In this document: one piece after another, positions 15,431-51,123 of the stretch | Layout of the letters: each line of letters starts with the position of its first letter | How positions within the stretch are numbered: the first letter of the stretch is position 1 | NCBI GenBank assembly: GCA_030599585.1 | Contig: JAUVNS010000006.1 | Location: 1 to 64,000, forward strand | From: Promethearchaeota archaeon | GTDB taxonomy: Archaea; Asgardarchaeota; Lokiarchaeia; Sigyniarchaeales; SOKP01 | Direction: 5' to 3' | DNA: 64,000 nt | Notes under the pieces: model-generated | What the model was told of the DNA's origin: nothing | Database searches by the model: none | Seen by the model: the letters and a program-made list of their open reading frames with translations, nothing else | Translations under genes and position numbers: made by a program

Positions 15431-16429
15431 ATGTCATTCAATATTGAAACAAGAAAAGTTCAGAAAACTGGTGGCTCCACCTATATCATTAGTCTACCAA
15501 GAGAATGGATTAATAAGCACGGAATTCAGGTTAAAGATACAATTGGAATCTTGTCACAACCAGATGGTAATTTGCTTATTACTCCCTACATAAGTTCAGA
15601 AAAGCTTATAAAAGAAAAGAAGTTTGATGTCGACGAGATTAAAAACTCTGATTTTTTATTCAGATTGTTAATTGGGGCTTATATCATGGGGTATAACATA
15701 ATAGAAGTGAGATCGAGTAAAAAATTCGAGTCAGTTATAAGAGATACGGTAAGAAACTTCAGTAAAATTACTATCGGGACTGAAATTATGGAAGAATCGG
15801 ATAATATTATTATAATAAAAGATTTACTTGACCCAAAAGAAATGCCGTTTGAGAAGACCATAAAAAGAATGTATATTTTAGCTAATAGTATGCACGAGGA
15901 CGCACTGAAAGCTCTTGAGACGGGAGCTAAAAAGCTTGCAGAAAAAGTAATTGAAAGCGACGATGATATTGATAGATTGAATTGGCTAGTTGAGCGCCAA
16001 GCTCATATTGTATTACGCGATATTATTTTGTGTCAAAAATTGGATATTACATTAGAAGATGCTAGTAATTACAAATTTATAAGCAGATTTTTAGAACGAA
16101 TAGGTGATCACGCCGTAAAAATAGCTAAAAATGTAATACTAATAGACTATCAAAAAATCGATAAGGAATTATACAATAACATTATGAAAGCAAGCGAAAT
16201 CTCATTAGACTTACTGAATATGAGTTTAGATGCCTGGCTCAAAAAGGATTTAAATTTAGCAAATGAAAATATTGAATCGATAAAAAGGTTAACAAAAGCG
16301 TGTAACGCCATTAAAATTAGCCCTAACTCAGAATACCTTGTAGAAATAGGGTTTATTATTGAGAGCATAAGGAGAACGGGCGAGTATTCATCAGATATTT
16401 CAGAAATTATTATAAACAATTTGATTTGA
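15431..16429 (+). CDS. phoU: Archaeal phosphate uptake regulator (AbrB DNA-binding domain + PhoU repeats)
   Basis: RKVQKTGGSTYIISLPREW, DDDIDRL, LERIGDHA, IRRTGEY. Confidence 0.93.
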   Translation: MSFNIETRKVQKTGGSTYIISLPREWINKHGIQVKDTIGILSQPDGNLLITPYISSEKLIKEKKFDVDEIKNSDFLFRLLIGAYIMGYNIIEVRSSKKFESVIRDTVRNFSKITIGTEIMEESDNIIIIKDLLDPKEMPFEKTIKRMYILANSMHEDALKALETGAKKLAEKVIESDDDIDRLNWLVERQAHIVLRDIILCQKLDITLEDASNYKFISRFLERIGDHAVKIAKNVILIDYQKIDKELYNNIMKASEISLDLLNMSLDAWLKKDLNLANENIESIKRLTKACNAIKISPNSEYLVEIGFIIESIRRTGEYSSDISEIIINNLI

Positions 16430-22631: not shown

Positions 22632-23648
22632 TTGTATAAGAAAACTCAAGTAAAATTTAAAACTTATAAATCTGACGCAGCTCCGTTTTTCTTCTATATT
22701 GAGATTTTCCCTTTCGATACATCGTTAATCAGAAATCCAAATTTATTTTCCCTATTAAAAATAATCGAAAAAAATCCGATTATTCCAATTCCGATGCGTG
22801 TCGATCGCGTATTTAACGGTGAAAATTCAGTGATCATCCGTCCTAGGGAAGTCATATCTTTTCAAATTTCAGAAGATCAGCTTGCTATTATTAACCCACA
22901 TCATTTTCTTTCCAATGGTATAAAAAATTTAATATATTTCTCTGAAATTCGTTCTTCAGAACAATTCTTTAAATCTTTATCAAGTAAAGATGTGATATCG
23001 TGGTGGGAAGCAACGAGATTCTTATATGGCAATCTTTCTAGACTTGAAGAAGATTTCTCCGCTTTCTTAAGAGCATATTTGCATACATTGGTAAAAAGTT
23101 ACATTGAAGGAGGTGATCTTGTGAGTGCGGCCATCCGATACTGCCAAATATTAGAAGATATCTGTAAAAAAAGGATGGAACAAAATAAAATTTTAATGGA
23201 GATCAATGGGGAGGAATCTAATGTGAAAATGTACAAAAGTAAAGTATTAACTTACTATAAAAAGTTCAAAAAAGTAAGAGAAAAGCAGCATCATCCAGAA
23301 TTAATTGATATTGAAATATTTAATTACTCCAGTAATAATTGGCCTAAAGATGCAACTTCTATAAAGAGAATAGAGAGTATAATAAAAAAATACATCCCTT
23401 TGTTGATTTATGATGATTTGCAAGAATGTATGCTACTGAATTTAAAATACTTAGAAGAAAATGAAAAAACAATTATAAATCCCTCAAGCTTGATAGAAGA
23501 AAAAATTATCACCATAATCGACTCGAAAAATTTTGATGATGATTTCAAGAAAAAAAATACTTGGTGGAAGGATTTTAACAACATTGAGCCAGATTTATTT
23601 TTAGAGGAGATTTTCCAATCACTTAAGATTAAGGGCTCTGGAAACTAA
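22632..23648 (+). CDS. Hypothetical soluble protein
   Basis: 338-aa ORF with normal composition; no family recognised. Confidence 0.75.
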   Translation: MYKKTQVKFKTYKSDAAPFFFYIEIFPFDTSLIRNPNLFSLLKIIEKNPIIPIPMRVDRVFNGENSVIIRPREVISFQISEDQLAIINPHHFLSNGIKNLIYFSEIRSSEQFFKSLSSKDVISWWEATRFLYGNLSRLEEDFSAFLRAYLHTLVKSYIEGGDLVSAAIRYCQILEDICKKRMEQNKILMEINGEESNVKMYKSKVLTYYKKFKKVREKQHHPELIDIEIFNYSSNNWPKDATSIKRIESIIKKYIPLLIYDDLQECMLLNLKYLEENEKTIINPSSLIEEKIITIIDSKNFDDDFKKKNTWWKDFNNIEPDLFLEEIFQSLKIKGSGN

Positions 23649-23912: not shown

Positions 23913-23926
23913 TTTACTTAAGTAAA
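23913..23926. promoter_or_regulatory. WTTAC-N4-GTAAW box (TTTACTTAAGTAAA), downstream of TATA, repressor-like position
   Basis: Perfect palindrome just after TTATAAG (23905), 30 nt before the ATG at 23957. Confidence 0.7.
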
Positions 23927-23956
23927 TTATTAAAGTAAATACTGATTTGAAACAAT

Positions 23957-25768
23957 ATGGAATTTGGGAAAAGTAAGATTGTTATAAAACCTTCTGGAAA
24001 AGGCAAATATAAAACAACTTGGATATATATCCCTAGTAAAGTTGCTAAAGATAGTTCCTTTCCGTTTAAAAATGATGAGGAAGTTTTGATAGAGATTAAA
24101 AATGGCTCTATATTAATCACAAAAGATGATACACGTACTAGAATGATTAAAGAGACAGGTATTGATAACATAACTCTTCCAAAGCTGCTAAGAAAAAAAG
24201 CGGTAGAAAATAGCGAGCAAGTAATACTATATTTTAGAGATGAAAAGTTAACATATAAGGATATTAATGAAAAATCAAACCAAATGGCATGGGGGATATT
24301 AGATTTAGTCAATTACCTAAATGTTAAAAGTCCAAAGATTTCATTGATGATGAGAAATTATCCAGATTTTTTATATTCTTGGTTTGGCATAGTAAAATCT
24401 GGCTGTGTTTTTGTCCCCATTAATACTGCATTGAAAGGAAAATATTTAGAACATGTTTTGAATGATAGTGATACGACAATTCTAATTATAGATTATAAGT
24501 TTCTTAAACTATTCAATGAAGTGCGACCTAATTTGTCAAAAATAAAAAGAATTATTGTACATAATGCTCCAAAAAACTTTGAGTTTAATGATGAATATCT
24601 AGATTTTCAATTACTTAAGAGTTCAAACACTGAAAATCCTGAAGTTAGCATATTTGAAGAAGATCCTATACAGATTATGTATACCGAAGGAATTACAGGG
24701 AAACCAAAAGGAGTATTGTATAGAAAAATGGTAGTTACAGCCATTAACATAGGTTTTCATTTAAAGAATATTGGTTTATCTAATGAAACAAAAATTTATT
24801 GCCCTATGCCTTTATTTCAAGGAGCAGCACAATTTTATGTTATTCTTCCCTCATTACTCTATAATATACCGGTGGTTTTAGCAGAAAAATTCGATGTAAA
24901 CAAATTTTGGGATGATGTTAGAACACATTCTCCTACGATATTTGCTTATTTTGGAGGCTATTTATTATTTCTCTTATATAATAATCCTAGCAAGTTTGAT
25001 AGAAAGCATCCTTTAAAATGGGCATATGGTTTCGGTGCTAGTATTGAATTATGGAAAGCATTTGAAAACCGGTTTGGAATAAAATTATATGAGTGTTATT
25101 CACATATGGAAGGAGTGGGAATTACAATTAATACATTAGGATCATATGGAGGAAAAACGGGATCAGTAGGAAAACCGTTAGATTCTCTTGATCTGAAAAT
25201 AGTTGATTCAAATGGTAATGAATTACCTCCAGGGCTAGATAATATTGGTGAAATAACTGTAAAATCAAAAAATAACACCATATTTGAATATTACAAACAA
25301 CCAGAAGTTAGGGATGTTAAAATCAGCGATGATGGTTGGGTTTATACTGGGGACTATGGATATATTGATGATGATAATTTTTTATTTTTTATGGGTAAAA
25401 AGAACGAGATTATACATAGAGCTGGAGATATAATCTATTTAAAAGAAATTGAAAGAATGGTTAATTCACATCCTTCAATTTATATAAGTGCTTGTGCTAC
25501 AGTTTTAAATGATTCAAAACCAAAAGCAGAAGTGATTTTATACGCCGTTAAAGTGAAAAATTCATCCCTTACTCCTAATGAATTAAGTGACTTCTTATAT
25601 CATAACATGGCTTATTACCACGTCCCTAGATATGTTGCTTTTTTAGAAAATTTGCCTACGAGTCCAAGTACGGAATATCTTAAGAATACCATTTTGGATG
25701 AGTGGGAAAAAATTGGAGGTAAAAAGAAAATTTGGGATAACCAACTTCAAGATTATTTTACAAATTAA
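23957..25768 (+). CDS. AbrB-like DNA-binding domain fused to a degenerate CaiC-like acyl-CoA synthetase domain (putative one-component regulator)
   Basis: aa1-58 KSKIVIKPSGKGKYKTTWIYIPSKVA...FKNDEEVLIEIKNGSILITK resemble a swapped hairpin. The AMP-binding fold has altered motifs YTEGITGKPKG, YSHMEG, FMGKK and LPTSPSTEY. Confidence 0.8.
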   Translation: MEFGKSKIVIKPSGKGKYKTTWIYIPSKVAKDSSFPFKNDEEVLIEIKNGSILITKDDTRTRMIKETGIDNITLPKLLRKKAVENSEQVILYFRDEKLTYKDINEKSNQMAWGILDLVNYLNVKSPKISLMMRNYPDFLYSWFGIVKSGCVFVPINTALKGKYLEHVLNDSDTTILIIDYKFLKLFNEVRPNLSKIKRIIVHNAPKNFEFNDEYLDFQLLKSSNTENPEVSIFEEDPIQIMYTEGITGKPKGVLYRKMVVTAINIGFHLKNIGLSNETKIYCPMPLFQGAAQFYVILPSLLYNIPVVLAEKFDVNKFWDDVRTHSPTIFAYFGGYLLFLLYNNPSKFDRKHPLKWAYGFGASIELWKAFENRFGIKLYECYSHMEGVGITINTLGSYGGKTGSVGKPLDSLDLKIVDSNGNELPPGLDNIGEITVKSKNNTIFEYYKQPEVRDVKISDDGWVYTGDYGYIDDDNFLFFMGKKNEIIHRAGDIIYLKEIERMVNSHPSIYISACATVLNDSKPKAEVILYAVKVKNSSLTPNELSDFLYHNMAYYHVPRYVAFLENLPTSPSTEYLKNTILDEWEKIGGKKKIWDNQLQDYFTN

Positions 25769-28254: not shown

Positions 28255-28268
28255 ATTACATATGTAAT
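28255..28268. promoter_or_regulatory. WTTAC-N4-GTAAW box (ATTACATATGTAAT) in the divergent SBP/permease promoter
   Basis: Perfect palindrome with TATA-like boxes 22 nt away on the minus side and 24 nt away on the plus side. Confidence 0.7.
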
Positions 28269-34921: not shown

Positions 34922-34935
34922 ATTACATTAGTAAT
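34922..34935. promoter_or_regulatory. WTTAC-N4-GTAAW box (ATTACATTAGTAAT)
   Basis: About 24 nt upstream of TTTATATA (34960), which precedes the 35015 gene. Confidence 0.7.
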
Positions 34936-35014: not shown

Positions 35015-37099
35015 ATGATAAAAAAAAGAAGAAAACTAAAAATTATATGCATAATCTCCTTAGTTCTGATTTGTACTTCATATTCTTTATCTTTTCTAGG
35101 ATTTACCAGCGAAGGTGAGTATAATTCATCTACTTTCTCACCTATTACTGCCCAAGGAGGTGTCCATTGGCCAGGAAATTCAAGTGAATGGACAGAAATA
35201 GATCCTGCAGACCAGGGATTAGATGCTGATAAGATATCGCAAATGTTTGATGTAATTGAATCTTCTTCGTACGATATCCACAGTGTTATCATTGTAAAGA
35301 ATGGGTATCTTATAAGAGAAGAGTTCTTAAATGATTCGGTAATTCGTCCAGAGGAAACATACGCAGATGGGACTAAACTCCATTTCCAAGCTTCCACAAC
35401 CAAATCCTTAATGTCTCTTTTAATTGGGGCTGCTATAGGACAAGGTTTTTTAAATGATATAAATCAGACTCTCTACGAATTTTTTGCTGATATTTGGAGT
35501 CCTAGTTTTGCTAATAGTACGCTAAAAAAGAACATTACAATAGAACAGCTGTTAATGATGAATGCAGGGCTTATGGGCTCTTATGATTCTGCTTATCCCG
35601 AAGGTTCTACTGTTTTGATTGATTGTATTAATTGGACGCTTAATAACGTGCCTATACAATATACTCCTGGAGAACTTGGAGGTTTTGCATATAGTAATGA
35701 TGGACCTCATCTCTTATCAGGGATAATAGCTAATGTAACTGGGATGAACACATCTGCTTTTGCTCAACAGTATTTATTCGGACCAATGGGAATAACAGAA
35801 GAAGAATGGAGTTGGCGGAATGATAGCAAAGGTGTTAGTTTAGGGGGATATGGATTTGATTGTTCACCGAAAGTACAAGCAAAAATAGGAGTACTATGTT
35901 TGAATAATGGTAATTGGAATGGCACTCAACTGATACCTTCAGATTATGTAAAGGAAGCGACATCATTCAAGACATCTCATGGAAGATGGACTTATGCTCC
36001 CCCAACTGATATCTTTAATTATGGATATCTATTCTATACTAACGACTCTAATAATGGATACCATACAGCTGGTGCAGGTGGGCAAAATATCTATGTTATT
36101 CCGGACTACAATACAACTGTAGCTTTTACAGGTTGGGACATGTCTGATGCAGTGTATAAGAGTTTTATATATGATTATATTCTTTATGCTGAAAGTAATG
36201 ATACTAAATGGGAACGAACCAGTGATTGGACTGGTGCAGAAGAAAAAACATATACTTGGGAAACAACTGAAGCGGATGAAAGTACACTATTACAGATGAA
36301 TACAGAATTAAAGCTTTCTCTCGGAGCTTCTTCTCGGCAATATTCTTTTAGTTCGGGAACTGCTACTGGTTTAGCGGGATCTGGGATGATAATAGAAGCA
36401 ACTATAACGAATGTCGCCTACGACCAATTGTCTGCGTCATTCAACGGGAATGTTTCAATTTTAAGCGGAGATGTGACTACAGAAATCGGTGGAGTAACAG
36501 ACATCTACGGCCTCACATCTAGTGGAGAAATTTGCATAATTGCCAATGAATCTAACACAGATAATTTAGACGCACATTTAACTATGTATTATAAGTATTC
36601 AAGCATATTTTACACATTTCCATTAGATTACATGATGCCCTCTGGTTATGGTTGGACGAGTACTGGTTATAATCTGTATCTACTATTTACCGCGATAAAT
36701 ACTGATTGGGATTATGTACTCTCAAATTGGAACGCTACCCTTCAAGGCTCACTGACTTATGGTACAGACTATACACTGGAGAAATCTGGGAATGGGTGGA
36801 ATGTTTGGTATAATGTGGGTGCCACAAATCCATTTCTCGTTCCTATTTGGGGTGACTATGACCAGACAGAGACACTCGAAATTACATTTGAATATGATAA
36901 CAATGGTGTTTTAAACTATTCCTCGGTAAGTTATGGTGGAGTAGTTGCTCATAGATTAGAGCTAAAGGTTGAAGCACCTCCAACTCCGCCTCCCGAAATT
37001 CCGGGTTACGATCTTGTCTATTTGTTAGGTGTTAGCACATTTGCTGGAGTAAGCATAATATTACTTAAAAAACGCAGAAAATTTCAGAAAGAACTTTAA
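35015..37099 (+). CDS. Surface-anchored serine hydrolase of the class C beta-lactamase/PBP-like family
   Basis: Signal peptide; SxxK (STTK), YSN, HTAG; extra C-terminal domain, Pro linker, IPGY-TM-KKRRK anchor. Confidence 0.88.
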   Translation: MIKKRRKLKIICIISLVLICTSYSLSFLGFTSEGEYNSSTFSPITAQGGVHWPGNSSEWTEIDPADQGLDADKISQMFDVIESSSYDIHSVIIVKNGYLIREEFLNDSVIRPEETYADGTKLHFQASTTKSLMSLLIGAAIGQGFLNDINQTLYEFFADIWSPSFANSTLKKNITIEQLLMMNAGLMGSYDSAYPEGSTVLIDCINWTLNNVPIQYTPGELGGFAYSNDGPHLLSGIIANVTGMNTSAFAQQYLFGPMGITEEEWSWRNDSKGVSLGGYGFDCSPKVQAKIGVLCLNNGNWNGTQLIPSDYVKEATSFKTSHGRWTYAPPTDIFNYGYLFYTNDSNNGYHTAGAGGQNIYVIPDYNTTVAFTGWDMSDAVYKSFIYDYILYAESNDTKWERTSDWTGAEEKTYTWETTEADESTLLQMNTELKLSLGASSRQYSFSSGTATGLAGSGMIIEATITNVAYDQLSASFNGNVSILSGDVTTEIGGVTDIYGLTSSGEICIIANESNTDNLDAHLTMYYKYSSIFYTFPLDYMMPSGYGWTSTGYNLYLLFTAINTDWDYVLSNWNATLQGSLTYGTDYTLEKSGNGWNVWYNVGATNPFLVPIWGDYDQTETLEITFEYDNNGVLNYSSVSYGGVVAHRLELKVEAPPTPPPEIPGYDLVYLLGVSTFAGVSIILLKKRRKFQKEL

Positions 37100-37969: not shown

Positions 37970-39844
37970 CTAAAAATTATATTTTGAGTTTAAAATCCTA
38001 TTATATATTTCTTTTGTCATAAGTTCATATCCAGATGAGTTAGGTAAAAGAATATAAAGAGAATCTTCTATTTTTTCAAGATTAAATGACTCTTTTTTTA
38101 AATTTCCTTTCTGAATTTTAAGAGTTGCTGTTGTGATTAATTTAGGAGTAAAACGAATAAATTTTGGAATAGCGTATTCTGGTAAACAATCCTGAAGCAT
38201 AGAGTAAAATTTTGAAAAATTAAAATCATTAATAGACTTTGAATTGGTGATAAGCGAAACCATTCCAGCTCGCCCTTCTGTATTAGGTATTAATACACCA
38301 TAAACACAACTCATTTCAACTTGGTCAAAATCATTAATTACAGCCTCAACTTCTTCAGTAGACACATTTTCTCCTTTCCATCTAAAAGTATCTCCAATTC
38401 TATCAACAAATTGAGCGTGTTTATAGATCTTCTTAAAAATTCTTATTTCTTTGATAAGATCTCCAGTATTAAAAAAAATATCTCCCTCCTCAAACACATT
38501 TCTGAAAATCTTTTTTTCATTCGCATTTTTATTAGTATATATGTAAAAATCATCTGTAATTATCTGTGCTATAAGAAGCCCTGCTTTACCTTCCTTTACT
38601 CTAATCATATAACCGTTTTCATCTCTGATAGGCTCATTAGTATCTAAATCATATTTCACAATTGCATATGGATTTAAGGTAAAGCCAACGGTACAATTTA
38701 AATTGAAACGGTTTGCTAAATTTGGTGAATTTTTTTCGGTAGCACCATAGAATTCAAAAATTTGTTTAATTCCAAATCTTTTTTTGAAATCCCTCCACAT
38801 TTCATTCCTGAGACCATTTCCCACGATTTTTTTTATATAATGTTTTCGATCAGTAGGTTTTTCGGGTTGGTTGTATAGGTATCGACAAATTTCACCAATA
38901 TAATTAAAACTAGTAGCTTTAAATTTAATAGCATCATCCCAAAATTTACTAGCAGAAAATTTACGCCTTAATGCAATAGTTGAGCCATATCTTAATGCTG
39001 CTGCATAAGCTACTTGTATAGCATGAGAATGAAACAGAGGAGTAGTCACATATATTACATCCTTGTGGTCAAATCCAACAACAGTATCAGCGAAGTAAAT
39101 ACTACAATCGTAAGTATGTCCGTGTGTAATGATTGCTGCTTTTGGTAACCCCGTTGTTCCACTAGTGAAGATGTAAGCGTATGGGTCTTTCGCTTGGAGT
39201 GTTTTTGATGTTGGAGGGTTGGAAATATCTTCATTTTTTACAAGATCTAATAAATTCTGAAACTCGTCGGGTTTTTTAACATCTCCGTTATCTGGAACAA
39301 AGTATAAATGATTAGATTGTTCTTCTGATAATTTAAGGTCCTGACGAATATCTTCAAACGCTTCTATTAATTCTTCACCAATAATAAAGACTTTTCCAGG
39401 ATCGATGTTAATACTATGCACTAGAGAATTGGATCTTTGTTTAGTATTAATTAGAGAAGAAATAACTCCTATTTTAGACAATCCAAATATTGTAAACATC
39501 ATCTCAGGCCTATTCGTTATAAAAACAACAGCTATATCTCCTTTGTTTAACCCGACCTTTTTTTGGAAATAATTGGCATATCGGTTGCACCATTCATTAT
39601 ATTCCTTATGTGTGTACCTTTCATCTTCAAAAAGAAGTGCGGCATCATTAGGATACTCTTTAGCATGTTTTTCTATCAAAATTGCAACATTATTATAAGA
39701 TTCTGGAGTTATAGCCAAGGCTTCATCAACAACGCTTTCCATTCGCTTAATTACATGGCGAGAAAATAACCAAGTCTTAATGTAATCCCATTTAGAGGGT
39801 AAGTAACTATTCCTTTTTTTTGATTGGGTACGATTTATACTCAT
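37970..39844 (-). CDS. Long-chain acyl-CoA synthetase, FATP/SLC27-like
   Basis: YIFTSGTTGLPKAA, YIGEICRY, GNGLR, FYGATE, FVDRIGDTFRWKGENVST, TATLKIQK. Confidence 0.93.
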   Translation of the reverse strand: MSINRTQSKKRNSYLPSKWDYIKTWLFSRHVIKRMESVVDEALAITPESYNNVAILIEKHAKEYPNDAALLFEDERYTHKEYNEWCNRYANYFQKKVGLNKGDIAVVFITNRPEMMFTIFGLSKIGVISSLINTKQRSNSLVHSINIDPGKVFIIGEELIEAFEDIRQDLKLSEEQSNHLYFVPDNGDVKKPDEFQNLLDLVKNEDISNPPTSKTLQAKDPYAYIFTSGTTGLPKAAIITHGHTYDCSIYFADTVVGFDHKDVIYVTTPLFHSHAIQVAYAAALRYGSTIALRRKFSASKFWDDAIKFKATSFNYIGEICRYLYNQPEKPTDRKHYIKKIVGNGLRNEMWRDFKKRFGIKQIFEFYGATEKNSPNLANRFNLNCTVGFTLNPYAIVKYDLDTNEPIRDENGYMIRVKEGKAGLLIAQIITDDFYIYTNKNANEKKIFRNVFEEGDIFFNTGDLIKEIRIFKKIYKHAQFVDRIGDTFRWKGENVSTEEVEAVINDFDQVEMSCVYGVLIPNTEGRAGMVSLITNSKSINDFNFSKFYSMLQDCLPEYAIPKFIRFTPKLITTATLKIQKGNLKKESFNLEKIEDSLYILLPNSSGYELMTKEIYNRILNSKYNF

Positions 39845-39913: not shown

Positions 39914-39927
39914 ATTACATAAGTAAA
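39914..39927. promoter_or_regulatory. WTTAC-N4-GTAAW box (ATTACATAAGTAAA) in the divergent ligase/esterase promoter
   Basis: Matches the consensus; a related TTACTATGTAAT at 39893-39904 forms a larger inverted repeat with it. Confidence 0.65.
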
Positions 39928-40007: not shown

Positions 40008-41519
40008 ATGAAAAATTCTGATATTGTTGAAACTACGACGGGAAAACTAAGGGGTTGTATAGAAAAGGGTTTGCCCATTTTTAAAGGGATACCATATGCA
40101 GAACCTCCAATTGGTGATTTGCGTTTCAGGAACACTGTTGAAAAGGAACCTTGGGAAGGCATCCTTGAAGCTGTAGAATTTGGTTTTATCGCCCCTCAAC
40201 CTGATATAGTTGGATCATCGATAAGATATCATCCTCAGAGCGAGGATTGTTTAACATTAAATATTTGGACTCCCGCATGTGATAATGAAAAACGCCCTGT
40301 AATGTTCTGGATTCATGGAGGAGGATTTCACTACGGAGGAGCTCCATCACCACGTTATAATGGTGAATTTTTAAGTCAAAGGGGTGATGTTTGTGTAATT
40401 ACGATAAATTATCGTTTGGGAGCATTAGGGAATCTCTATGTACCTGATGAAGTTTCAAACCTTGGTTTTATGGACCAGATCGCTGCTTTAAAATGGGTTT
40501 ATGATAACATAGCAAATTTTGGTGGAGATCCTCATAATATCACGATTTTTGGTGAGTCTGCAGGAAGTACAGCTGTTTGCACATTACTTTCAATGCCCGC
40601 TGCAAAGTCGTTCGTTCGTCGAGCAATTTGTCAAAGTGGAGCTCTGGATTCTCAAGGTCATCACACAGAAGGTGGTATTCTAGCTTCTAAGACTTTATTT
40701 TCGAGACTCGGAATAAAAATAGGTGACATTGATGCTATTCGCAAAATCTCAGTTGAAAAATTGATTAAAAAAGAAAACGAGATAAGATTAGAAAAATGGG
40801 ATAAACAAGACTGGACGGGTTATCCTCCTACTATTGATGAAAATAAGGTACCGGATCACCCTCTACTAGCCATTGGTAAGGGATCGTCAAAGAATGTAGA
40901 TTTATTAATTGGAACTAACCTTAATGAGTGGACATTCTTTTCAATGTTGACTCCAAAATTACAACTTATTGATTGGAATGGTTTAACTGAACTGATAAAT
41001 ATAAATTTAAATAAATTAGATTTAGATAAAACCCAAGTTGAAAAACTTATCGATTCATTTAAACACTCTAGAAATAACCCCTTTGAGGTATTGAATGCCA
41101 TATCCACGGATGTAACTTTTCGATATCCCTCTATAAGAGTAGCAGAAGCTCAATCAACACACAATAATAATACATATATGTATCTATTTACTTATAGAAC
41201 CCCTGTAATGGGGGGCGTTTTTGGAGCCACTCACGCGCTCGAAATTCCTTTCGTATTTGGATCTTTAGATAATACTGAATTTGGGGTTTATCCTAAGAGG
41301 GATGAAATTAATTCAAAAATTTCTGAGCTAATGATGGATACTTGGATTTCTTTCGCAAGATCAGGTAACCCAAATCACAATGAAATCCCTCCGTGGCCTA
41401 CGTATGATACAGACAATAGATACACATTATTATTTGGTGAGACTATTAAAATAGAGAAAGATCCATTGCGAGCTGAAAGGTTAGCAATGGAAAAACTTCC
41501 TTTTAAGTATAGACATTGA
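40008..41519 (+). CDS. Type-B carboxylesterase/lipase
   Basis: FKGIPYAEPP, SEDCLTLNIW, HGGG, FGESAG, ATHALE. Confidence 0.94.
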   Translation: MKNSDIVETTTGKLRGCIEKGLPIFKGIPYAEPPIGDLRFRNTVEKEPWEGILEAVEFGFIAPQPDIVGSSIRYHPQSEDCLTLNIWTPACDNEKRPVMFWIHGGGFHYGGAPSPRYNGEFLSQRGDVCVITINYRLGALGNLYVPDEVSNLGFMDQIAALKWVYDNIANFGGDPHNITIFGESAGSTAVCTLLSMPAAKSFVRRAICQSGALDSQGHHTEGGILASKTLFSRLGIKIGDIDAIRKISVEKLIKKENEIRLEKWDKQDWTGYPPTIDENKVPDHPLLAIGKGSSKNVDLLIGTNLNEWTFFSMLTPKLQLIDWNGLTELININLNKLDLDKTQVEKLIDSFKHSRNNPFEVLNAISTDVTFRYPSIRVAEAQSTHNNNTYMYLFTYRTPVMGGVFGATHALEIPFVFGSLDNTEFGVYPKRDEINSKISELMMDTWISFARSGNPNHNEIPPWPTYDTDNRYTLLFGETIKIEKDPLRAERLAMEKLPFKYRH

Positions 41520-41585: not shown

Positions 41586-41599
41586 TTTACGATAGTAAA
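41586..41599. promoter_or_regulatory. WTTAC-N4-GTAAW box (TTTACGATAGTAAA)
   Basis: 23 nt upstream of TTAATAT (41623), before the Fe-ADH/CoA-transferase genes. Confidence 0.65.
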
Positions 41600-45956: not shown

Positions 45957-45970
45957 TTTACTGAAGTAAT
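45957..45970. promoter_or_regulatory. WTTAC-N4-GTAAW box (TTTACTGAAGTAAT)
   Basis: 22 nt upstream of TTAAAAAG (45993), before the ACAD start at 46028. Confidence 0.65.
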
Positions 45971-51109: not shown

Positions 51110-51123
51110 ATTACTTATGTAAA
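51110..51123. promoter_or_regulatory. WTTAC-N4-GTAAW box (ATTACTTATGTAAA)
   Basis: About 23 nt upstream of minus-strand TTTATAA (51086-51080), before mmsA-HOT. Confidence 0.7.

What the first reader, a model, noticed from the sequence alone, without database searches (positions are those of the whole stretch)
23957..25768. AbrB domain fused to an apparently inactive acyl-CoA synthetase: candidate new type of acyl-sensing transcription factor
Seen: the first ~58 aa resemble an AbrB/MazE swapped hairpin (beta-beta, IYIP-helix, F...EEVLIEI..GSILITK). The remainder is a full-length CaiC-like adenylate-forming fold with several conserved positions altered at once: P-loop YTSGTTG to YTEGITG (24680-24712), YGxTE to YSHME, hinge Arg DR to GK, and no A10 catalytic Lys (LPTSPSTEY, 25652-25678). 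The ligase at 37970..39844 keeps all of these and serves as an internal control. The ORF is intact, so this does not look like decay. Inference: a pseudo-enzyme reused as the ligand sensor (carboxylate, CoA or acyl-CoA) of a one-component regulator. This differs from the FadR/TetR-type fatty-acid regulators I know. Its own promoter carries the palindrome shared by the neighbouring catabolic genes.
Basis: partly seen in the sequence, partly recalled or inferred. Interest (0 to 1): 0.92.

Follow-up and report, generated by a model that had tools for sequence, protein, structure and literature searches.

The report
AbrB-like DNA-binding domain fused to ligase
An intact Asgard-archaeal gene joins a small AbrB-type DNA-binding domain to an acyl-CoA-ligase-like body that lacks the catalytic lysine; a 14-bp palindrome sits just upstream of this gene in distantly related archaea, so it is probably a self-regulating metabolite-sensing transcription factor of a kind not yet described.

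Summary
ORF 23957-25768 (603 aa) is intact, under purifying selection, and has more than 100 full-length relatives in Lokiarchaeia, Thor-, Hel- and Hermodarchaeota and Bathyarchaeia.

- **N-terminal domain.** Residues 1-58 model as beta-beta-alpha-beta-beta. The only 10 of 48,161 PDB chains with Z>=2 are AbrB/SpoVT/MazE/VapB swapped hairpins. An interleaved homodimer is predicted. Sequence-level support is sub-threshold.
- **Ligase body.** The rest is an adenylate-forming (ANL) fold. The A10 catalytic Lys is missing in 102 of 108 relatives. The P-loop and hinge changes are specific to the Loki clade. P-loop Lys251, Mg-binding Glu385 and ribose-binding Asp466 do not vary, so nucleotide binding is probably retained. 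"Dead enzyme" is therefore not established.
- **New evidence.** TTAC-N4-GTAA lies within 70 nt upstream of the fusion gene in 13 of 19 loci. That compares with 2 of 252 neighbouring genes and 8 of 3,831 genes genome-wide. The association holds across four unrelated gene neighbourhoods and into Bathyarchaeia.
- **Local regulon.** In the window, 7 of the genome's 19 intergenic sites lie within 27 kb, in front of ester and acyl-CoA catabolic operons.

Best reading (about 0.55): an autoregulated one-component regulator with an ANL sensor domain. Rivals are a BirA-like bifunctional ligase-repressor and a plain enzyme controlled by another factor. DNA binding and ligand are untested. First readers of this scan noted the same fusion in other genomes.

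The parts
23957..25768 (+). Whole ORF, 603 aa: AbrB-like N-domain fused to an ANL (adenylate-forming) body
   Evidence: dN/dS 0.16-0.30 in all three parts against the 79%-identical orthologue
23957..24130 (+). N-domain, aa 1-58: predicted swapped-hairpin (AbrB/MazE/SpoVT-like) DNA-binding and dimerisation domain; invariant S13 G14 Y18 W22 Y24 P26 F35 P36 F37
   Evidence: AF2 topology b8-13, b18-23, a27-30, b43-48, b51-56; all 10 PDB chains with Z>=2 are AbrB-fold; homodimer ipSAE 0.44 against control 0.00; alignment A2
24131..24178 (+). Linker, aa 59-74: predicted helix 59-67 plus a short connector into the ANL fold
24179..25390 (+). ANL large N-terminal subdomain, aa 75-478
   Evidence: Pfam PF00501 E 7e-50; AF2 pLDDT mostly above 90; Foldseek matches to 4CL, AuaEII and DhbE at E 1e-38
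24680..24712 (+). A3 P-loop YTEGITGKPKG: Gly245, Gly248 and Lys251 invariant, Pro250 in over 90%; Ser to Glu244 and Thr to Ile246 are specific to the Loki clade
25097..25111 (+). A5 YSHME in place of YGxTE: Glu385 invariant; Gly and Thr not kept
25343..25354 (+). A7 YTGD: ribose-binding Asp466 kept in 107 of 108 members
25391..25768 (+). ANL small C-terminal subdomain, aa 479-603
   Evidence: Pfam PF13193 weak, 22.3 bits against cut-off 24.5; AF2
25394..25408 (+). A8 hinge GKKNE in place of GRxxD (Arg to Lys481, Asp to Glu484); canonical in the distant clade
25652..25678 (+). A10 LPTSPSTEY: Glu573 (25673-25675) at the position of the catalytic Lys; Lys absent in 102 of 108 family members
   Evidence: phmmer alignment to FATP2
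23913..23926 (.). Palindrome TTTACTTAAGTAAA, 30 nt upstream of the ATG: candidate operator for autoregulation. A one-mismatch copy lies at 23926-23939.
   Evidence: conserved position in 13 of 19 loci
28255..28268 (.). Palindrome in the divergent region between the SBP_bac_5 gene (-) and the Opp-like ABC operon (+)
34922..34935 (.). Palindrome 79 nt upstream of the beta-lactamase-like hydrolase gene at 35015
39914..39927 (.). Palindrome in the divergent region between the canonical FATP-like ligase (-) and the carboxylesterase (+); conserved in the G264 orthologous locus
41586..41599 (.). Palindrome 100 nt upstream of the Fe-ADH / CoA-transferase operon; conserved in G264
45957..45970 (.). Palindrome between Abhydrolase_3 (-) and the ACAD-ECH operon (+)
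51110..51123 (.). Palindrome between ALDH (-) and the AbfD/HpaB-family gene (+)

Best explanation
The gene encodes an autoregulated one-component transcription factor.

Two N-terminal AbrB-like domains interleave into a swapped-hairpin dimer. This dimer reads the two-fold symmetric operator TTAC-N4-GTAA, which lies at or next to the BRE/TATA region of the gene's own promoter and of about six neighbouring catabolic operons. Those operons encode esterases, an Opp-like importer, a canonical acyl-CoA ligase, Fe-ADH with a CoA-transferase, ACAD with ECH, and ALDH with AbfD. In other genomes the operator also precedes a DUF2284 / corrinoid protein / RACo operon.

The ANL body no longer works as a canonical acyl-CoA synthetase, because the A10 Lys is replaced by Glu. 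It still binds a nucleotide and probably a carboxylic acid, acyl-AMP or acyl-CoA. Ligand binding would change the ANL conformation and so the DNA affinity.

Shown computationally: the fold, the predicted dimer, the motif states, purifying selection, and the association of the operator with the gene. Inferred: DNA binding by this protein, repression by occluding the promoter, the identity of the ligand, and loss of ligase turnover.
For: 1. N-domain fold. The AF2 model has pLDDT 80.5 and beta-beta-alpha-beta-beta topology. In an exhaustive structural search of 48,161 chains, only 10 reach Z>=2 (Z 2.4-4.0), and all are AbrB-fold DNA binders: Sso7c4, VapB, SpoVT, AbrB-N, C56 and MazE. The top Foldseek hits are from the same family. 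PF04014 is the commonest, though sub-threshold, Pfam hit among 84 homologues (28 of 84, best E 1.3e-4).

2. Homodimer. ipSAE is 0.44 against a best control of 0.00. That mark was reached by 20 of 30 proteins solved as homo-pairs and by 1 of 23 solved as single chains. The runs agree in at least 95% of contacts, and partner pLDDT is at least 63. Contacts 53:53, 23:23 and 43:6 are the interleaved swapped-hairpin pattern. AbrB and MazE dimers are solved, so the pass may reflect likeness to them.

3. Operator tied to the gene. The exact core lies within 70 nt upstream of 13 of 19 fusion genes, against 2 of 252 other genes in the same loci (Fisher p 5e-16; the loci are related and not independent) and 8 of 3,831 genes in the genome. 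The set includes Bathyarchaeia, Helarchaeota and a different Asgard family, and four unrelated gene neighbourhoods.

4. The motif is not a general promoter element. The genome holds 62 copies, about what chance predicts. Nineteen are intergenic, and 7 of those lie in 27 kb of this window.

5. No ORF in the 24-52 kb cluster other than this one matched a DNA-binding family; two ORFs (hyp338, hyp170) have no Pfam match.

6. The ANL body is under purifying selection (dN/dS 0.16-0.30) but lacks the A10 Lys in 102 of 108 members. Nucleotide-contacting Lys251 and Glu385 are invariant and Asp466 is kept in 107 of 108.
Against: - No experiment and no RNA data are available.
- The N-domain is below Pfam's threshold (13.7 bits against 24.7). 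It is not significant in profile-profile comparison with a genuine AbrB domain.
- Z scores of 4 or less are low in absolute terms.
- A conserved operator upstream of a gene is also what a conserved regulon member would show.
- The fusion is co-inherited with the DUF2284 / corrinoid / RACo cassette in many genomes, which also fits a pathway enzyme.
- AbrB-type proteins often lack sharp palindromic specificity (my own knowledge).
- Retention of the P-loop Lys, the Mg-binding Glu and the ribose-binding Asp argues against a fully dead enzyme.
Confidence: 0.55

Rival explanations
1. Bifunctional ligase-repressor of the BirA or RbkR type. The ANL body still adenylates a carboxylic acid, slowly or with another basic residue such as Lys576 standing in. 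The bound acyl-AMP, or the catalytic cycle, controls binding of the AbrB-like dimer to TTAC-N4-GTAA. In some lineages the protein would also be the activating enzyme of its pathway.
For: Lys251 of the P-loop, the Mg-binding Glu385 and the ribose-binding Asp466 do not vary or nearly so. The distant clade keeps canonical TSGTTG (23-31 of 34) and GRxxD (27-31 of 34). AF2 places the model in the adenylate-forming conformation (rmsd 3.3-4.0 A to 5bsw, 4wv3, 1md9 and 5bsm, against more than 10 A to thioester-state structures). In the Helarchaeota locus the fusion is the only ANL gene called within the 12-kb locus that also holds the SDR-ECH and DUF35-thiolase-NMO genes. All the operator evidence listed for the best explanation applies here too.
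Against: The A10 Lys, needed for adenylation in every characterised ANL enzyme I know of, is Glu (charge reversal) in this clade and Leu, Phe or Met in the distant clade. The A5 Thr and the A8 Gly490 vary. The window regulon already contains a canonical ligase at 37970-39844.
Confidence: 0.22
2. A non-canonical ANL enzyme, or an accessory protein of the corrinoid / RACo methyl-transfer or ester-catabolism pathway. Its AbrB-like N-domain serves only to dimerise or to dock on a partner. The palindrome is bound by another, unlinked transcription factor, and this gene is simply a constant member of that regulon.
For: The gene order DUF2284 / B12 corrinoid protein / RACo / fusion is conserved in Loki genera, Hermodarchaeota and, in part, Bathyarchaeia. 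The cassette co-occurs with the fusion. Swapped-hairpin folds also occur in non-DNA-binding contexts (my own knowledge). The N-domain is not significantly similar in sequence to known AbrB domains. A MarR-type gene lies next to the fusion in one locus.
Against: The operator follows the fusion gene into neighbourhoods that lack the corrinoid cassette (the window, G264, G297, Helarchaeota, L059). No second regulator gene is conserved beside it. The gene is patchy (4 of 27 genomes of its genus, 30 of 301 of the phylum). A trans factor would therefore have to travel with it. The N-terminal half of the domain is strongly basic (8 Lys and 1 acidic residue in aa 1-31).
Confidence: 0.18
3. Nothing special: a mis-called start or a chance N-terminal extension on an ordinary or decaying ligase gene, with chance palindromes.
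For: The extension has no Pfam hit above threshold.
Against: The extension covers 100% of the query in more than 100 relatives and contains nine invariant residues. dN/dS is 0.05-0.23. No internal start is conserved. Palindrome enrichment is 8 against 0.65 expected, and its position is conserved.
Confidence: 0.02

Closest known systems
SpoVT (Bacillus subtilis; PDB 2w1t) and archaeal AbrB-PhoU proteins
   Same: An N-terminal swapped-hairpin AbrB-type DNA-binding domain is followed in one chain by a larger ligand-binding or sensor domain. SpoVT is among the structural matches (Z 3.7). An AbrB-PhoU protein is encoded in this very window at 15431-16429.
   Different: The sensor here is a 530-aa ANL adenylate-forming fold, not a GAF or PhoU domain. 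The N-domain belongs to a separate sequence family with the signature IYIPS..A.DS.FPF, which stays below the PF04014 threshold.
BirA (biotin protein ligase / bio repressor)
   Same: An adenylate-forming enzyme fold is fused to an N-terminal DNA-binding domain. It regulates its own pathway through a palindromic operator, and ligand state controls DNA binding (established knowledge).
   Different: BirA has a winged-helix domain and a class II aaRS-like ligase fold, and it is fully catalytic. Here the domain is AbrB-like, the fold is ANL, and the canonical catalytic Lys is absent.
RbkR (archaeal riboflavin kinase/regulator; PMC5397151)
   Same: It is an archaeal precedent for an enzyme fused to a DNA-binding domain that regulates genes of the same pathway. 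It was found by the same comparative-genomics logic.
   Different: RbkR has a winged-helix domain and an active CTP-dependent kinase. The fold, the ligand and the taxa all differ.
Canonical ANL acyl-CoA synthetases (4CL, FadD13, MenE, FATP2, CaiC)
   Same: Homologous fold over aa 75-585 (E 1e-38 to FATP2 and 4CL). The A3 skeleton, the A5 Glu and the A7 Asp are kept.
   Different: None of them carries a DNA-binding domain. Here the A10 Lys is Glu, the A5 Gly and Thr are lost, and A8 Arg and Asp are Lys and Glu. Scores fall far below every NCBIfam equivalog cut-off (for example CaiC 235 against 651).
FadR / TetR-type acyl-CoA-responsive regulators
   Same: Local control of fatty-acid and ester catabolism operons through palindromic operators (established knowledge).
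   Different: They have helix-turn-helix DNA-binding domains and small helical acyl-CoA pockets. They share no homology with either domain of this protein.

Membership tests
AbrB/MazE/SpoVT swapped-hairpin superfamily (Pfam PF04014 clan) | Domain of about 50 aa with beta-beta-alpha-beta-beta topology | tested here: met
   AF2 model from 46 sequences, pLDDT 80.5: b8-13, b18-23, a27-30, b43-48, b51-56. The same elements appear in the full-length model.
AbrB/MazE/SpoVT swapped-hairpin superfamily (Pfam PF04014 clan) | Structural similarity to solved AbrB-fold domains | tested here: met
   All 10 chains with Z>=2 among 48,161 are AbrB-fold: 5itj Z 4.0 (rmsd 2.0 over 46 aa), 5k8j 4.0, 2w1t 3.7, 1yfb 3.6. 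The absolute Z values are low, as expected for a 50-aa half-barrel.
AbrB/MazE/SpoVT swapped-hairpin superfamily (Pfam PF04014 clan) | Sequence match to PF04014 above the gathering score | tested here: not met
   P0001:1-62 scores 13.7 bits (E 0.061) against a cut-off of 24.7. Of 84 homologues, 28 match below threshold. hhalign against a genuine AbrB-domain alignment is not significant. The best profile hit against PDB is MazE at E 0.16.
AbrB/MazE/SpoVT swapped-hairpin superfamily (Pfam PF04014 clan) | Obligate interleaved homodimer | tested here: inconclusive
   The prediction supports a dimer: ipSAE 0.44 against a best control of 0.00. The mark was reached by 20 of 30 proteins solved as homo-pairs and 1 of 23 solved as single chains. 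At least 95% of contacts are shared between runs, and pLDDT is at least 63. This is a model only, and the pass may come from likeness to solved AbrB and MazE dimers.
AbrB/MazE/SpoVT swapped-hairpin superfamily (Pfam PF04014 clan) | Binds DNA | not testable with these tools
   Indirect evidence only: a basic N-terminal half and a conserved palindrome upstream of the gene.
ANL superfamily (Pfam PF00501 / PF13193) | Homology and fold of the two-subdomain adenylate-forming enzymes | tested here: met
   PF00501 170 bits against a cut-off of 29.9. AF2 pLDDT 86. Foldseek E 8e-39 and TM 0.82 to 4CL.
Catalytically canonical acyl-CoA synthetase | A10 catalytic Lys (PxxxxGK) | tested here: not met
   Glu573 aligns with the Lys of FATP2 TGTFK and of the window ligase TATLK. 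The Lys is absent in 102 of 108 relatives.
Catalytically canonical acyl-CoA synthetase | A3 P-loop T-S-G-T-T-G-x-P-K-G | tested here: inconclusive
   The sequence reads T-E-G-I-T-G-K-P-K-G. The Gly / Gly / Lys skeleton is invariant, and Ser and Thr are replaced in this clade only.
Catalytically canonical acyl-CoA synthetase | A5 YGxTE, A7 TGD, A8 GRxxD | tested here: inconclusive
   Glu385 is invariant and Asp466 is kept in 107 of 108. The A5 Gly and Thr are lost. A8 Arg is Lys and Asp is Glu here, while both are canonical in the distant clade.
CaiC crotonobetaine/carnitine-CoA ligase (NCBIfam NF005947) | Score above the equivalog cut-off | tested here: not met
   235 bits against a cut-off of 651. 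All other equivalogs are also far below their cut-offs.
Autoregulated one-component regulator / trigger enzyme (BirA, RbkR, SpoVT type) | DNA-binding domain and ligand-binding, enzyme-derived domain in one chain | tested here: met
   Architecture conserved in more than 100 relatives of about 600 aa with 100% coverage.
Autoregulated one-component regulator / trigger enzyme (BirA, RbkR, SpoVT type) | Conserved operator in its own promoter and in promoters of linked pathway genes | tested here: met
   13 of 19 own promoters carry the site, against 2 of 252 neighbouring genes and 8 of 3,831 genes genome-wide. Seven clustered intergenic sites lie in the window.
Autoregulated one-component regulator / trigger enzyme (BirA, RbkR, SpoVT type) | Ligand-dependent DNA binding | not testable with these tools
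   Needs EMSA, DAP-seq and ligand screens.

The most novel reading that the evidence does not exclude
This is a previously unrecognised family of archaeal transcription factors, found in Asgard archaea and Bathyarchaeia. An ANL adenylate-forming fold that has lost its catalytic lysine serves as the sensor of an AbrB-type DNA-binding dimer. The protein may hold an acyl-adenylate or nucleotide-plus-acid complex as the effector. It switches on ester, acyl-CoA and corrinoid methyl-transfer catabolism through the operator TTAC-N4-GTAA. The family also shows a visible evolutionary path from a near-canonical enzyme (the distant clade) to a pseudo-enzyme (the Loki clade).
Probability: 0.5. Interest if true: 0.8.

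Novelty: new variant of a known kind. Interest (0 to 1): 0.72.

Why it matters
As far as I know, few or no Asgard transcription factors have an assigned operator and regulon. This finding gives a concrete, cheaply testable triplet: a protein, a 14-bp operator and target operons.

If confirmed, it would add the ANL fold to the short list of enzyme folds recruited as transcription-factor sensors, alongside BirA, NadR, PutA, RbkR and MocR. It would document a pseudo-enzyme or trigger-enzyme transition within one family.

It would also define a regulon linking esterases, an Opp-like importer, acyl-CoA metabolism and a DUF2284 / corrinoid / RACo cassette. That would help annotate carbon use in uncultured sediment archaea.

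Public annotation currently calls these proteins only 'AMP-binding protein' or 'acyl-CoA ligase'. Metabolic reconstructions may therefore be counting a regulator as a ligase.

Tried and rejected
- Pfam on aa 1-70 found nothing.
- A profile of the N-domain against PDB sequences found no hit. The wider profile A3 gave MazE only at E 0.16.
- Foldseek of the N-domain model against PDB gave a consistent AbrB-fold top list, but all hits had E>0.28.
- hhalign of A3 against the window's own AbrB-PhoU N-domain was not significant, either alone or as a 7-sequence alignment (probability below 1%). The template was very shallow because only 6 homologues were found.
- Control attempt 1: look for orthologues of a target gene (the carboxylesterase at 40008) in same-genus genomes without the fusion. 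Only G264, which has the fusion, holds a true orthologue. All others are 40-52% paralogues without the site. The test was uninformative.
- Control attempt 2: look for DUF2284 cassettes in genomes without the fusion. Every cassette-holding genome whose fusion status was known also holds the fusion; eight further handles were not checked. No fusion-less control was found.
- Seven standalone small homologues of the N-domain had no TTAC-N4-GTAA upstream. The motif cannot be tied to the fold family in general.
- The genome-wide palindrome count (62) is about what chance predicts. A per-genome count cannot be used as a co-occurrence test.
- No RNA holder was listed for the locus, so there is no TSS or expression evidence.
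- Four literature searches found no AbrB-ANL or ANL-sensor transcription factor. The library is partial.
- The neighbour hyp338 (22632-23648) was checked as an alternative regulator. It has no Pfam family, and the protein atlas gave only 'hypothetical protein' clusters.
Full report
**1. The observation**

ORF 23957-25768(+) is one open frame of 603 aa. Pfam places an AMP-binding domain at aa 79-440 (E 7e-50) and a weak AMP-binding_C at aa 497-570. It finds nothing in aa 1-70. NCBIfam matches many acyl-CoA ligase models, all far below their cut-offs; CaiC, for example, scores 235 against 651.

- A3 YTEGITGKPKG (24680-24712)
- A5 YSHME
- A8 GKKNE
- A10 LPTSPSTEY (25652-25678)

In the phmmer alignment to human FATP2, and in the alignment with the window's own ligase at 37970-39844, Glu573 stands where those proteins have the catalytic Lys. 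Lys576 matches their second basic residue. That ligase is canonical at every motif. So is the closest paralogue in the genome, C9:256367-257911, which lacks the N-terminal domain.

**2. The fusion is conserved and under selection**

A search of 5.8 billion proteins returned 293 relatives. The best 120 are almost all about 600 aa long and cover 100% of the query. Their sources name Lokiarchaeota/Promethearchaeota, Thor-, Hel- and Hermodarchaeota and a Bathyarchaeote (MCG SMTZ-80).

The N-terminal 60 aa contain nine invariant residues: S13, G14, Y18, W22, Y24, P26, F35, P36 and F37. Against the 79%-identical orthologue, dN/dS is 0.23 for the N-domain, 0.16 for the large ANL subdomain and 0.30 for the small one. 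This is not decay.

The genome (4.85 Mb, 33% G+C) has one copy of the fusion. It also has about 15 ANL paralogues without the N-domain. In a survey of 301 genomes of the phylum, 30 carry the fusion. In the window's own genus, 4 of 27 do, so the distribution is patchy.

**3. What the N-domain is**

An AF2 model built from 46 sequences (pLDDT 80.5) has strands 8-13 and 18-23, a short helix 27-30, strands 43-48 and 51-56, then helix 59-67.

An exhaustive structural comparison with 48,161 PDB representatives gave only ten chains with Z>=2. All ten are AbrB-fold DNA-binding domains:
- Sso7c4 5itj: Z 4.0, rmsd 2.0 A over 46 residues
- VapB 5k8j: Z 4.0
- SpoVT 2w1t: Z 3.7
- AbrB-N 1yfb: Z 3.6
- also C56, other VapBs and MazE

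Foldseek gives the same families at the top, but with E>0.28.

Sequence evidence is weak but points the same way. PF04014 is the commonest sub-threshold hit among 84 homologues (28 members, best E 1.3e-4). P0001:1-62 itself scores E 0.061. Profile-profile comparison with the genuine AbrB domain of the AbrB-PhoU protein at 15431-16429 is not significant.

A two-copy prediction passed its mark. The score was 0.44 against a best control of 0.00. That mark was reached by 20 of 30 proteins solved as homo-pairs and by 1 of 23 solved as single chains. The runs share at least 95% of contacts, and pLDDT is at least 63. The contacts (53:53, 23:23, 43:6) are the interleaved strand pattern of a swapped hairpin. 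Because AbrB and MazE dimers are solved, this pass shows likeness rather than binding.

A profile search of 1.84 billion representatives found 381 proteins with this domain. About 15 are the fusion or fragments of it. The rest are standalone proteins of 50-130 aa with the signature IYIPS..A.DS.FPF. That is the size and form typical of small AbrB-type binders.

I conclude that the N-domain is a divergent member of the swapped-hairpin fold class.

**4. State of the ANL body across the family**

I examined 108 full-length members.
- Kept throughout: Lys251 (A3) and Glu385 (A5, the Mg ligand in characterised ANL enzymes) are invariant, and Asp466 (A7, ribose binding) is kept in 107 of 108.
- A10 Lys: absent in 102 of 108. 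It is Glu in every member at or above 55% identity to this protein, mostly Glu in the 47-55% group, and Leu, Phe or Met in the most distant group.
- Distant group: keeps canonical TSGTTG (23-31 of 34) and GRxxD (27-31 of 34).
- This protein's clade: has Ser244Glu, Thr246Ile, Arg481Lys and Asp484Glu.

So the loss of the adenylation Lys is family-wide and probably dates from the origin of the fusion. The other changes are a later, clade-specific erosion.

The full-length AF2 model (pLDDT 86) superposes best on adenylate-forming conformers. The retained nucleotide-contacting residues argue that the domain still binds ATP, AMP or acyl-AMP. From the established role of the A10 Lys in Acs, luciferase and 4-CBL (my knowledge, not tested here), canonical adenylation should be badly impaired. 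Complete inactivity is not shown.

**5. The palindrome**

WTTAC-N4-GTAAW occurs 8 times in the window against 0.65 expected, and 0 of 100 shuffles reach 8. Genome-wide there are 62 copies, about the chance level. Nineteen are intergenic, and seven of those lie between 23.9 and 51.1 kb of this window.

The seven sites precede:
- this gene
- the SBP / Opp-like divergon
- a beta-lactamase-like hydrolase
- the canonical ligase / carboxylesterase divergon
- the Fe-ADH / CoA-transferase operon
- the Abhydrolase_3 / ACAD-ECH divergon
- the ALDH / AbfD-like divergon

No ORF in that stretch other than this one matched a DNA-binding family; two ORFs, hyp338 and hyp170, have no Pfam match.

**6. The decisive comparative result**

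I fetched 18 further loci that encode the fusion. The exact core TTAC-N4-GTAA lies within 70 nt upstream of the start in 13 of the 19 loci. It is present with one mismatch in three more.

The three loci without a site in front of the fusion have it in front of the first gene of an operon: DUF2284, B12 corrinoid protein, RACo, then the fusion.

In the same loci only 2 of 252 other genes have the core upstream. In the whole genome 8 of 3,831 do (Fisher p 5e-16, overstated because the loci are related).

The association survives wide divergence. It holds in a Bathyarchaeote, with an exact site at -36 and a one-mismatch site at -55, the same two-site layout as in Loki genus g2. It holds in a Helarchaeote (-18) and in another Asgard family (-22 and -64).

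It also holds in four unrelated neighbourhoods:
- CarAB / Opp
- corrinoid / RACo
- NMO-SDR-ECH
- SDR-ECH / DUF35-thiolase

The flanking sequence is otherwise unalignable. The only constant partner of the palindrome is the fusion gene, which carries a DNA-binding fold. This is the classic signature of autoregulation.

The site sits 18-53 nt before the ATG. For leaderless or short-leader transcripts that is at or beside BRE/TATA. I therefore favour repression by occlusion, but this is inference.

**7. Limits**

No control genome exists in which the target operons occur without the fusion. No RNA data are available. Standalone homologues of the N-domain do not carry this palindrome.

The tight linkage with the corrinoid / RACo cassette also fits a pathway role for the protein. 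One extra intergenic site in this genome precedes a B12-binding corrinoid protein. That fits either reading.

**8. Comparison with known systems and verdict**

The architecture works like SpoVT or the archaeal AbrB-PhoU proteins (a swapped hairpin plus a sensor). It also works like BirA or RbkR (an enzyme fold plus a DNA-binding domain regulating its own pathway; PMC5397151). No AbrB-ANL regulator, and no ANL fold used as a transcription-factor sensor, turned up in four literature searches. Public records name these proteins only as ligases.

I rate it a new variant of a known kind. Confidence is 0.55 for the autoregulated sensor-regulator, 0.22 for a still-catalytic BirA-like form, and 0.18 for a plain enzyme controlled by another factor.

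First readers of this scan flagged the same fusion in other genomes, and the palindrome regulon in this one. Those notes are unchecked and are not independent evidence.

Noticed in passing
window 15431-16429 (+): A genuine AbrB/MazE domain (PF04014, E 2e-10) fused to a PhoU domain. This is a second swapped-hairpin fusion protein, 8 kb upstream and outside the palindrome cluster.
   Followed up: partly
L013:5158-10603, L058:257-5738, L056:1-3845 (other genomes): A conserved four-gene cassette: DUF2284 (predicted metal-binding), a B12-binding corrinoid protein, RACo (reductive activator), then the AbrB-ANL fusion. It occurs in Loki genera and Hermodarchaeota and, in part, Bathyarchaeia. In most Loki loci examined two palindromes 85-107 bp apart lie in the divergent promoter it shares with an alpha/beta-hydrolase gene. 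No methyltransferase subunit is evident.
   Followed up: partly
protein P0136 (652 aa): One representative protein carries ten tandem stretches matching the N-domain profile. This is a poly-swapped-hairpin architecture of unknown role.
   Followed up: no
window 23323-23336, inside ORF 22632-23648: An eighth exact palindrome (ATTACTCCAGTAAT) lies inside the unannotated 338-aa ORF just upstream of the fusion. That ORF has no Pfam family and is syntenic in G264.
   Followed up: partly
G000:C22:231693 (own genome, outside the window): An intergenic palindrome TTTACCATGGTAAA lies 92 nt upstream of a B12-binding corrinoid protein gene (230953-231600, minus strand). It may be a distant member of the same regulon.
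   Followed up: partly
window 23.9-51.1 kb and G264:C126:99.7-146 kb: The whole ester / acyl-CoA catabolic island is syntenic only with genome G264 among those searched. This includes the palindromes on both sides of the carboxylesterase gene. G264 carries two copies of the fusion.
   Followed up: partly
47-55% identity group: Six family members have Lys at the A10 position (PSTKFLK-type). They could be reversions or could mark a subgroup that kept adenylation.
   Followed up: no
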